Below are positions 1,184 to 2,250 of a stretch of 64,000 bases of DNA, one piece after another (position 1 is the stretch's first letter; the number at the start of each line of letters is the position of its first letter). The DNA is taken from sequence record OQ174503.1. The stretch is one strand, 5' to 3'. This DNA is from Escherichia phage REP4. A program made the translations under genes and the position numbers. The notes under the pieces are model-generated. The model worked only from the letters and a program-made list of their open reading frames with translations, had not been told where the DNA came from and searched no databases.

Positions 1184-2044
1184 TTACACCGCCATCTTTC
1201 CTTTCAAGACACCATGGGACTGATAATCTTTGAGAACGAAATCTCGTGCTGTCATATATTCAGTTAACCAATACATTTGAGTTTCAGTATCGCATTGACT
1301 GAATCCATTAGGCCAATTAATACTAAGTTTGCATAGATCCATAGGAGTTCTATTTAATATCTCTTTGCATTGCTCAATATGGTTAGAATAAATGTGTGTA
1401 TTACCACCCGAGAATACCAAATCGCCCGGAACTAGTTCACACATGTCAGCAACAATATGTAAAAGAGCAGCATAACTCGCGATGTTAAATGGAAGACCGA
1501 GGAAAACATCTACCGAACGTTGATACCATTGTAGGTCAAGGTATCCGTTACGCACATTAAACTGATAGAACATATGACAAGGTGGTAATGCCATCTGCTT
1601 GAGTTCAGCTGGATTCCATGCCGACACAATTTGACGTCTATCATTGGGAAATGTTTTAATACGATTAACAACTTCTACAATTTGATCTACACCACCAAAA
1701 TCACGCCACTGTTTTCCGTAAATTGGACCAAGTTCACCGCTATGATAACCTAAGTCTTTGGCCTGGTTTTCGTAGTTTTCATCCCAAATTGTTTTTCCTG
1801 CAATTAAAGATCCATGAGTACGTTGACGTAAATCATTTACGTTAGTACTTCCTGATAAGAACCACAATAACTCAGAAATACATGCATTCCAGGCGAGCTT
1901 CTTAGTCGTTACTGCAGGAAAACCTTTAGTTAAATCCCAGCGTAATTTAGTACCGAACAAAGCAATTGTTCCTGTGCCTGTTCGGTCATCGGTTTCATAG
2001 CCATTTTCCAGAATATCTTTAATTAAAAATTGGTATTGTTTCAT
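1184..2044 (-). CDS. td: Thymidylate synthase, intron-less, 286 aa
   Basis: ORF track; ATG at M5 (MKQYQF) gives T4 Td length; conserved TS core (PPCH, DLQWYQRSVD, LGLPFNIASYA); uninterrupted reading frame. Confidence 0.95.
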   Translation of the reverse strand: MKQYQFLIKDILENGYETDDRTGTGTIALFGTKLRWDLTKGFPAVTTKKLAWNACISELLWFLSGSTNVNDLRQRTHGSLIAGKTIWDENYENQAKDLGYHSGELGPIYGKQWRDFGGVDQIVEVVNRIKTFPNDRRQIVSAWNPAELKQMALPPCHMFYQFNVRNGYLDLQWYQRSVDVFLGLPFNIASYAALLHIVADMCELVPGDLVFSGGNTHIYSNHIEQCKEILNRTPMDLCKLSINWPNGFSQCDTETQMYWLTEYMTARDFVLKDYQSHGVLKGKMAV

Positions 2045-2250
2045 TAGTTCATCCAAGAATATGTAGAAGGATATTTGGCAAAGTTAGGTTTATATCCTAA
2101 TTTAACCATTTGTTTTGCTTTGCGAGTAAATCCTAAAGAACGCTCACCTTTAAGATACTGTTTTGGTGTCATAGGCCCTTGATGCATCTGCCGACAAATA
2201 AAAAGGGCCATAGCATTAGGAACATCCTTAACTTTTAATTTATTGCTCAT
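2044..2250 (-). CDS. Hypothetical basic 68-aa protein inserted between frd and td
   Basis: ORF track; its ATG overlaps frd stop (ATGA) and its stop overlaps td ATG (TAATG). Confidence 0.6.

What the first reader, a model, noticed from the sequence alone, without database searches (positions are those of the whole stretch)
2044..2250. A 68-aa basic ORF inserted exactly between frd and td with both junctions overlapped
In T4 the frd stop overlaps the td start. Here the frd stop overlaps the ATG of a 68-aa ORF (ATGA), and that ORF stop overlaps the td ATG (TAATG), so a roughly 205-bp gene has been placed in the junction while translational coupling is kept on both sides. td is also intron-less. 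The protein is Lys/Arg-rich (predicted nucleic-acid binding) and is co-expressed with thymidylate metabolism enzymes.
Basis: partly seen in the sequence, partly recalled or inferred. Interest (0 to 1): 0.55.

Follow-up and report, generated by a model that had tools for sequence, protein, structure and literature searches.

The report
Small swappable gene upstream of td
A real 68-codon gene of unknown function sits between the dihydrofolate reductase and thymidylate synthase genes of this T4-like phage, but it is already annotated as a hypothetical protein in hundreds of related phages and is one of three interchangeable versions of this gene junction, so it is ordinary.

Summary
On the minus strand, frd (2828-2247), a 68-aa ORF (2250-2044) and an intron-less td (2044-1184) are chained by ATGA and TAATG overlaps. 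T4 has frd/td overlapped directly.

The ORF ("B") is a genuine gene: dN/dS is 0.16-0.28 and it belongs to phrog_9550 (unknown function). The identical protein is on 332 public contigs. About 135 Tequatrovirus/Dhakavirus genomes carry it, as do Klebsiella, Enterobacter and Serratia T4-like phages, always abutting td. Phapecoctaviruses carry it away from td.

In Tequatrovirus the frd-td junction has three alleles: B (about a quarter), an unrelated 115-aa ORF as in T2/T6 (about two thirds), and T4's bare overlap (a few percent).

B DNA is 97.6% identical between Tequatrovirus and Dhakavirus, where frd and td are about 80% and 76%. The shared tract starts exactly at B's ATG. B is therefore a laterally exchanged cassette, which partly supports "insertion".

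Verdict: known hypothetical gene, modest evolutionary interest.

The parts
2247..2828 (-). frd, dihydrofolate reductase, 193 aa; its TGA (2249-2247) overlaps the start of ORF B
   Evidence: ORF list; Pfam DHFR_1 E=1.6e-19; 94.5% DNA identity to T4 frd
2044..2250 (-). ORF B: 68-aa basic protein, family phrog_9550, unknown function (coordinates include the stop codon)
   Evidence: phrog_9550 E=1.3e-45 over the full length; dN/dS 0.16-0.28; AF2 three-helix model, pLDDT 84.9; pI 10.26
1184..2044 (-). td, thymidylate synthase, 286 aa, intron-less
   Evidence: Pfam Thymidylat_synt residues 2-286, E=1.6e-94; one continuous ORF
2247..2250 (-). ATGA: frd stop overlapping B start. The 40 nt upstream are identical to those upstream of td in T4, so B starts behind what serves as the td initiation region in T4
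2042..2046 (-). TAATG: B stop overlapping td start
   Evidence: the junction TGGATGRACTAATGAAACAATA is shared with Marfa and 4S (CIP9 has a GTG variant)
2050..2054 (-). GGATG, a Shine-Dalgarno-like element for td lying inside B's last codons (Trp-Met), 5 nt before the td ATG
   Evidence: Read from the sequence. TGGATG is conserved in every B-td junction examined. Its function is inferred, not tested
1990..2250 (-). Tract nearly identical across genera (B plus about the first 50 nt of td): the apparent unit of lateral exchange between Dhakavirus and Tequatrovirus
   Evidence: B is 97.6% identical where frd is ~80% and td nt 61-540 is ~76-78%; P<=3e-13. The right end is approximate

Best explanation
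ORF B is a genuine accessory gene of the frd-td operon that does not appear to be essential. It belongs to a small, phage-only family (phrog_9550) of 58-108-aa basic proteins. In T4-like phages of enterobacteria it always lies immediately upstream of td. It has no promoter or terminator of its own and is stitched in by overlapping stop/start codons. Expression is therefore most likely by translational coupling (inferred): ribosomes ending frd restart at B's AUG (AUGA), and ribosomes ending B restart at td's AUG (UAAUG), helped by a GGAUG inside B's last codons. B thus starts behind the sequence that precedes td in T4, and it supplies a new initiation region for td.

In evolutionary terms B is one of three alleles of the Tequatrovirus frd-td junction, and it moves between phages as a precise 206-bp cassette. 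The left boundary falls within the AAATGA shared by all junction types. The right boundary lies about 50 nt into td. Exchange between Dhakavirus and Tequatrovirus was recent.

The protein is predicted to be a compact three-helix domain with conserved positive charges (K4, K6, R20, K30, K34, R43, K54). The most likely mode of action is binding a polyanionic target, either nucleic acid or an acidic host or phage protein, during early or middle infection of Enterobacteriaceae. This last step is inference only, at roughly 30% confidence.
For: Real gene: dN/dS is 0.16 (vs Marfa), 0.23 (vs CIP9) and 0.28 (Marfa vs CIP9) with dS near 1. Between genera B is 50-81% identical in protein, against 33-64% for Frd and 74-82% for Td. 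There is no RNA-structure signal (z=-0.13) and no Rfam match.

Family: phrog_9550 matches all 32 members tested. Only 11 clusters were found among 1.84e9 representatives and 40 clusters at 90% identity. None was found in 185,579 representative bacterial and archaeal genomes using T4-like-subgroup patterns.

Position: B abuts td in window, EC121, JS10, IME281, fPS-90, UGKSEcP2, Marfa, CIP9 and 4S, and the junction sequence is conserved. No promoter-like or terminator-like site lies between frd and td.

Alleles: B-type about 135 records. The A1 type (115 aa, phrog_1928, as in T2/T6) has about 363 records. The T4 type has about 20-40 records.

Lateral exchange: window vs JS10 is 81% in frd, 97.6% in B and 75% in td. 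The frd 3' end is genus-specific up to position -7 and identity begins at B's ATG. P<=3e-13. Within Tequatrovirus, B is 99-100% identical on frd and td backgrounds that differ by 4-15%.

Protein: AF2 pLDDT is 84.9 with helices at 13-24, 29-38 and 43-49. Family-wide pI is 9.75-10.6 and net charge +7 to +17.

Probably dispensable: T4, T2, T6, WG01 and AnYang lack it at this junction.
Against: No experiment or data set here shows that B is translated; coupling is inferred from geometry alone.

The direction of transfer is unsettled. All four Dhakaviruses examined carry the td 5' type ([12 protein letters not shown]) found in B-type Tequatroviruses, which suggests Dhakavirus to Tequatrovirus. However, one A1-type Tequatrovirus (SHFML-11) has that type too.

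The near-identity of B across genera could in principle reflect constraint on the DNA itself, although synonymous sites vary freely against Marfa.
Confidence: 0.6

Rival explanations
1. B is a functional partner of thymidylate synthase. It could be a small subunit, assembly factor or regulator of Td or of the dNTP-synthesising enzyme complex, and is kept translationally coupled to td so that the two are made together.
For: B lies immediately upstream of td with an overlapped or abutting junction in every T4-like genus that has it. It is at least as conserved as Frd.
Against: Homologues in Phapecoctavirus and in three uncultured phage contigs sit among small early-type genes, with no td within 3-5 kb and no shared neighbour. 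Td functions in T4, T2 and T6 without B. The conserved junction may only reflect the td ribosome-binding site being embedded in B's last codons.
Confidence: 0.12
2. Pure vertical history. B is ancestral at this site, was simply deleted in the T4 lineage between the AATGA repeats, and was never transferred laterally.
For: Orthologues occupy the same site in Marfavirus, Kanagawavirus and 4S and diverge roughly in step with td and frd. The indel is flanked by a 5-bp direct repeat. T4 also lacks two other small ORFs next to frd that relatives have.
Against: B is 97.6% identical between two genera whose flanks differ by 19-25%. T4's td 5' end (QDLIKDIF) differs from that of every B-type phage examined (QFLIKDIL), so T4 is not a simple deletion derivative of today's B haplotype. 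In T6 the frd stop is followed by ATGAAATAA, which looks like a relic of a direct frd/td junction.
Confidence: 0.15
3. B is a remnant of, or hitch-hiker on, a selfish mobile element. It could be a degenerate homing-endonuclease domain, or be carried along by I-TevI-driven co-conversion from the td intron 549 nt downstream.
For: Its distribution is patchy. The td intron with I-TevI is present in many B-type phages. T-even homing endonucleases are known to co-convert flanking markers (established knowledge).
Against: A profile search of the six-frame translations of the window and of the T4, T2 and T6 loci found no similarity to I-TevI, I-TevIII, MobE or SegG, and no paralogue. The window, JS10 and UGKSEcP2 have B with an intron-less td. 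The tract shared across genera ends about 50 nt into td, far from the intron site.
Confidence: 0.08
4. B is not a gene. It would be a chance open frame in a spacer that only serves to separate or tune frd and td translation.
For: Short ORF; no known domain; unannotated in the JS10 and JS98 records.
Against: dN/dS is 0.16-0.28. Family members of full length and conserved sequence occur in unrelated phages at other loci. The AF2 model is confident. The chance of such an open frame is about 0.005.
Confidence: 0.03

Closest known systems
PeSL-ORFan cassettes of T4-type phages (Arbiol, Comeau, Kutateladze, Adamia, Krisch 2010, PMC2839356; PMC4122927)
   Same: Single small genes of unknown function that are gained, lost and shuffled between closely related T4-type genomes at defined sites.
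   Different: PeSL cassettes are bounded by a promoter-early/stem-loop motif that supplies the homology and their own transcription signals, and they sit in hyperplastic regions. B has no promoter-like or terminator-like site. It sits inside an operon between two metabolic genes, and its left boundary is only the AAATGA of an overlapped stop/start.
Morons of lambdoid phages (Hendrix et al. 2000, as summarised in PMC2839356)
   Same: A solitary accessory gene inserted between two genes that are adjacent in related phages.
   Different: Morons carry their own promoter and terminator and are often expressed independently. B has neither and depends on operon transcription and, probably, on coupled translation.
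The alternative frd-td cassette phrog_1928 (RB32ORF229c; the T2/T6 115-aa ORF 'A1' and its paralogue 'A2')
   Same: Occupies the same frd-td interval. It is also of unknown function and has a patchy distribution. In CIP9, Marfa and 4S it co-occurs with B.
   Different: It is unrelated in sequence (hhalign probability 0.2%). In T6 it is separated from frd and td by 20-nt and 44-nt spacers rather than overlapped.
The T4 frd/td ATGA overlap
   Same: Same frd 3' end, same ATGA, and the same 40 nt upstream of the start codon.
   Different: In T4 that start codon belongs to td; here it belongs to B, and td starts 206 nt further on.

Membership tests
phrog_9550 (PHROGs v4, unknown function) | Full-length match to the family profile | tested here: met
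   E=1.3e-45, residues 1-68 on profile positions 1-68 of 68; all 32 aligned relatives hit the same family
Helix-turn-helix DNA-binding proteins | Sequence match to a curated HTH family, or fold match to a solved HTH domain | tested here: not met
Helix-turn-helix DNA-binding proteins | Demonstrated DNA binding | not testable with these tools
   Only the conserved positive charge is available
Homing endonucleases (GIY-YIG, HNH) or their DNA-binding remnants | Similarity to a nuclease or DNA-binding domain of I-TevI, I-TevIII, MobE or Seg proteins | tested here: not met
   A profile search of six-frame translations of the window and the T4/T2/T6 loci gave nothing below E=0.15 except B itself; no Pfam hit
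PeSL-ORFan cassette | Flanking early promoter plus stem-loop motif | tested here: not met
   No promoter-like or terminator-like site between 2044 and 2828 on the minus strand. The junctions are ATGA and TAATG overlaps
Moron | Own promoter and terminator | tested here: not met
Known anti-defence or defence proteins | Match to a PADLOC-DB model | tested here: not met
   No hit at E<=10. This library covers defence systems rather than phage counter-defence, so the test is weak
Translationally coupled gene pair | Stop codon of the upstream gene overlapping or abutting the start of the downstream gene, with no intervening promoter or terminator | tested here: met
   ATGA and TAATG overlaps; no signals between the genes
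Translationally coupled gene pair | Downstream translation depends on upstream translation | not testable with these tools
   Needs reporter fusions or premature-stop mutants

The most novel reading that the evidence does not exclude
B is a host-directed factor specific to phages of Enterobacteriaceae, for example an inhibitor of a host nucleic-acid-binding or defence protein. It is currently spreading through coliphage T-even populations (Tequatrovirus and Dhakavirus) because it is advantageous. It does so by precise cassette exchange at overlapping stop/start codons, a route of gene gain that needs no regulatory sequence and leaves operon translation intact.
Probability: 0.15. Interest if true: 0.55.

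Novelty: already known. Interest (0 to 1): 0.2.

Why it matters
As a gene it adds nothing new. The identical protein is already deposited from many phages and is catalogued as phrog_9550.

The modest value is evolutionary. The frd-td junction is a three-allele site, and T4, the reference phage, carries the rare, empty allele. "Insertions relative to T4" in this region should therefore not be read as novelties.

The B cassette also gives a clean natural example of a gene exchanged between phage genera with one boundary inside a 6-nt stop/start overlap, so that both neighbours stay translationally linked.

If B proves to have a host target, its presence in two unrelated groups of enterobacterial myoviruses and its recent spread would make it a reasonable candidate for functional screening. 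It is small, easy to clone, and has natural plus and minus backgrounds.

Tried and rejected
1. Function by sequence. Pfam, NCBIfam, PADLOC and PDB sequences gave nothing, with both the single sequence and the profile.

3. Guilt by association outside T4-like phages. An all-against-all comparison of neighbours of B in phAPEC8 and three uncultured contigs found no shared neighbour.

4. Mobile-element remnant. No similarity to homing endonucleases and no paralogue.

5. RNA element. The fold is no better than shuffles (z=-0.13) and there is no Rfam hit above noise.

6. Relation between the two cassette families, A (phrog_1928) and B. None was found.

7. Bacterial homologues. None in representative genomes, using patterns from the T4-like subgroup only.

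8. Literature. No paper in the library mentions RB32ORF229c, phrog_9550 or an ORF "between frd and td". The Yersinia fPS phage paper and the phiR1-RT toxicity screen do not discuss this gene.

9. My first reading was that B is ancestral and T4 simply lost it. I revised this after the JS10, WG01, AnYang and SHFML-11 comparisons.

10. A search for a B-deleted Tequatrovirus that keeps the B-type td 5' end found none among the best 45 hits.

11. The annotations "flagellar biosynthesis protein" and "DUF4858" attached to B in a few records are not supported by the Pfam scan.

Full report
**1. What is in the sequence**

The genes lie on the minus strand. frd runs from 2828 to 2247 and encodes 193 aa (Pfam DHFR_1). 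A 68-codon ORF, here called B, runs from 2250 to 2044. td runs from 2044 to 1184 as one 286-aa ORF that matches Thymidylat_synt from end to end, so it has no intron.

The frd TGA overlaps B's ATG as ATGA (2250-2247). B's TAA shares one base with the td ATG as TAATG (2046-2042). The window is a Tequatrovirus: the best match to the 501 bases around B is phage EC121 at 99.4%.

In T4, frd and td overlap directly by ATGA. Aligning the two junctions shows a clean 206-bp indel with AATGA on both sides.

**2. It is a real gene**

Against the orthologues of Klebsiella phage Marfa and Enterobacter phage CIP9, synonymous sites are nearly saturated (dS 0.9-1.0). Non-synonymous change is low, with dN/dS of 0.16 and 0.23, and 0.28 for Marfa against CIP9.

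Between these genera B is 50-81% identical in protein. That is better than Frd (33-64%) and somewhat below Td (74-82%).

The RNA of the region folds no better than shuffled sequence (z=-0.13), and nothing in Rfam matches. At this composition a 68-codon open frame has a chance probability of about 0.005.

**3. How widely it occurs**

- The protein matches PHROG family 9550 (unknown function) over its full length (E=1.3e-45), as do all 32 relatives I aligned.
- The exact 68-aa sequence is already in public collections, seen on 332 contigs. It is deposited under many GenBank accessions as "hypothetical protein".
- tblastn finds it in 237 phage records. About 134 are at 90% identity or more (Tequatrovirus and Dhakavirus). 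About 30 are Klebsiella, Enterobacter or Serratia T4-like phages at 60-81%. About 70 are Phapecoctavirus at about 43%.
- An exhaustive HMMER scan of 1.84 billion representative proteins found only 11 clusters. One of them is a spurious repetitive 1402-aa protein.
- A word-indexed profile search found 40 clusters at 90% identity, all 42-108 aa.
- No relative was found in 185,579 representative bacterial and archaeal genomes, using patterns from the T4-like subgroup.

It is therefore a small, phage-only family, seen so far in phages of Enterobacteriaceae and in a few uncultured contigs.

**4. Genomic context**

In every T4-like phage examined, B lies immediately upstream of td. This holds for EC121, fPS-90, UGKSEcP2, JS10, IME281, Marfa, CIP9 and 4S. 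The junction sequence TGGATGRACTAATGAAACAATA is shared by the window, Marfa and 4S, and CIP9 has a GTG variant.

Upstream of B the content varies. Marfa and 4S have one extra ORF of about 120 aa between frd and B, and CIP9 has two. These extra ORFs, together with the 115-aa ORF that T2 and T6 carry between frd and td, belong to a single family, phrog_1928, also of unknown function. That family is unrelated to B.

Outside the T4-like phages, B homologues sit in runs of small early-type genes. Examples are phAPEC8 and three uncultured contigs: one has an RNA ligase, a Pif1 helicase and a DnaB-like gene within 5 kb, one has PrlF/NinX-like genes within 3 kb, and one has a Tad2-like gene about 4 kb away. 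None has a td within 3-5 kb, and they share no common neighbour. Adjacency to td is thus a feature of the T4-like lineage and not of the family as a whole.

**5. A three-allele junction, with T4 in the minority**

About 514-570 phage records carry this frd-td junction.

| Allele | Approximate number of records | Basis |
|---|---|---|
| A1 (115-aa ORF, as in T2/T6) | 363 | tblastn at 90% identity or more |
| B | 135 | |
| Bare T4-type overlap | 20-40 | 2 of 30 and 4 of 60 evenly spaced rows; includes several T4 records, G2133, FN and vB_EcoM_112 |

B occurs with an intron-containing td (EC121, fPS-90, a15 and others, where matches break at td nt 549) and with an intron-less td (window, VIPECOOM01, UGKSEcP1/2, JS10). 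In the sample the split was about half and half.

**6. Lateral exchange**

This result changed my reading. Between the window (Tequatrovirus) and JS10 or IME281 (Dhakavirus), DNA identity is as follows.

| Segment | Identity |
|---|---|
| frd | about 80-81% |
| B | 97.6% (5 differences in 207 nt) |
| td nt 61-540 | about 77-78% |

The probability of so few differences in B at the flank rate is at most 3e-13. The frd 3' end is genus-specific right up to position -7 (TATAAATGA against TACAAATGA). Identity begins at B's ATG and continues about 50 nt into td, after which each genus has its own td sequence.

Within Tequatrovirus, B is 99-100% identical among phages whose frd and td alleles differ by 4-15%. 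B has therefore spread recently across backgrounds and across two genera as a precise cassette. Its left boundary lies within the AAATGA common to all junction types.

Dhakavirus is also polymorphic. WG01 and AnYang have a direct frd/td overlap like T4.

All four Dhakaviruses, with or without B, and all four B-type Tequatroviruses examined begin Td with [13 protein letters not shown]4, T2, T6 and vB_Eco_T-01 begin with MKQYQDLIKDIF. This suggests transfer from Dhakavirus into Tequatrovirus. It also shows that T4 is not a simple deletion derivative of today's B haplotype. One A1-type Tequatrovirus (SHFML-11) also has the F/L type, so the direction is suggestive and not settled.

In T6 the frd stop is followed by ATGAAATAA. 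This looks like a relic of a direct frd/td (or frd/B) junction, so A1 too may be an insertion.

On the longer time scale, the orthologues in Marfavirus, Kanagawavirus and 4S show that the B-td arrangement is old. Both statements hold: old in the wider group, and recently exchanged among coliphage genera.

**7. How it is probably expressed (inferred)**

No promoter-like or terminator-like site lies between frd and td. The only terminator-like hairpin nearby is the one after gene 32, at 4501-4483.

The 40 nt upstream of B's ATG are identical to the 40 nt upstream of td's ATG in T4. B therefore starts behind what serves as td's initiation region in T4. td in turn starts 5 nt after a GGATG that lies inside B's Trp-Met codons (2054-2050).

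This geometry fits serial translational coupling, frd to B to td. Dependence of one gene's translation on the other was not tested.

**8. What the protein may do (weakly supported)**

B is 7.9 kDa with pI 10.26 and net charge +11. The whole family is basic, with pI 9.75-10.6 and net charge +7 to +17. Positive residues are conserved at K4, K6, R20, K30, K34, R43 and K54, and some members carry extra Lys-rich tails.

With a 32-sequence alignment, AlphaFold2 gives a confident compact model (pLDDT 84.9, pTM 0.62) with helices at 13-24, 29-38 and 43-49.

The best guess is binding to a polyanionic partner, either nucleic acid or an acidic protein, early in infection. The gene does not appear to be essential, since T4, T2 and T6 lack it at this junction. 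Its presence in two unrelated groups of enterobacterial myoviruses, and its recent spread, hint at a host-directed accessory role. I put about 30% on polyanion binding and about 12% on a specific partnership with Td.

**9. Comparison with known kinds**

The closest described phenomenon is the shuffling of single ORFan cassettes in T4-type genomes through PeSL motifs (PMC2839356, PMC4122927). Next closest are the morons of lambdoid phages. B differs from both in having no regulatory flanks, and it is spliced in at overlapping stop/start codons inside an operon. It shows no similarity to homing endonucleases.

**10. Verdict**

It is not a novelty of this phage, it has no link to intron status, and there is no evidence for nucleic-acid binding or a thymidylate role. 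The gene is already known as an uncharacterised family. Interest is low to modest.

Noticed in passing
window 2828-3073 (-) and 3082-3417 (-): Two further small ORFs lie between frd and frd.1: an 81-aa ORF (phrog_3183) and a 111-aa ORF (Pfam DUF7247, E=9e-44). T4 lacks both and has only a 72-nt gap there. T6, EC121 and UGKSEcP2 have them or variants, and T2 has only the first. T4 is the most reduced version of this whole region.
   Followed up: partly
L007 (T6) 5973-6320 (-); L008 (T2) 4753-5112 (-): T2, T6 and about 360 other records carry a different 115-aa ORF (RB32ORF229c, phrog_1928) between frd and td. It has distant paralogues upstream of B in Marfa, CIP9 and 4S. The T2 record LC348380 leaves it unannotated.
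   Followed up: partly
L007 (T6), just downstream of the frd stop (about 6333-6344, - strand): In T6 the frd TGA is embedded in ATGAAATAA (Met-Lys-stop). This resembles the start of td (ATGAAACAA) or of B (ATGAGCAATAA). It may be a scar showing that the A1 cassette was inserted into a direct overlap junction.
   Followed up: no
window 1184-1910 (-), td from about nt 137 onward: The window's intron-less td allele is about 99% identical to that of the A1-type phage vB_Eco_T-01. From about nt 137 it differs by about 13-15% from the td exon 1 of T4, T6, EC121, fPS-90 and UGKSEcP2. The window is therefore a local mosaic of a B cassette joined to a td allele found with another junction type.
   Followed up: partly
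L023 (JS10) 1501-1707; JS98 NC_010105 144216-144413: B is present at 98.5% protein identity but unannotated in the JS10 and JS98 records. IME281 and IME339 annotate only a truncated 42-aa version starting at an internal Met.
   Followed up: yes
GenBank records PYPS2T (NC_054944, MH809535), vB_EcoM_P8 and vB_EcoM_Shinka: B is labelled 'flagellar biosynthesis protein' or 'DUF4858' in a few records. No Pfam family, DUF4858 included, matches B at E<=1, so these names look like annotation artefacts.
   Followed up: yes
P0026 (1402 aa, metagenomic): The profile search returned a highly repetitive 1402-aa protein with six weak matches to positions 9-29 of the profile (motif VPSALGLHVCHQG). It looks like translated eukaryotic repeat DNA and is treated as spurious.
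   Followed up: no
window 4483-4501 (-): A strong terminator-like hairpin (GGGGACC...GGTCCCC followed by a T run) lies just after gene 32 (4524-5432). It is the only terminator-like site in 900-5600, so frd.3 to td appear to form one transcription unit downstream of it.
   Followed up: no
L027 (WG01) 924-2362; L028 (AnYang) 4-1565: Dhakaviruses WG01 and AnYang have a direct frd/td ATGA overlap like T4. The bare junction therefore exists in two genera, each with its own flanking sequence.
   Followed up: yes
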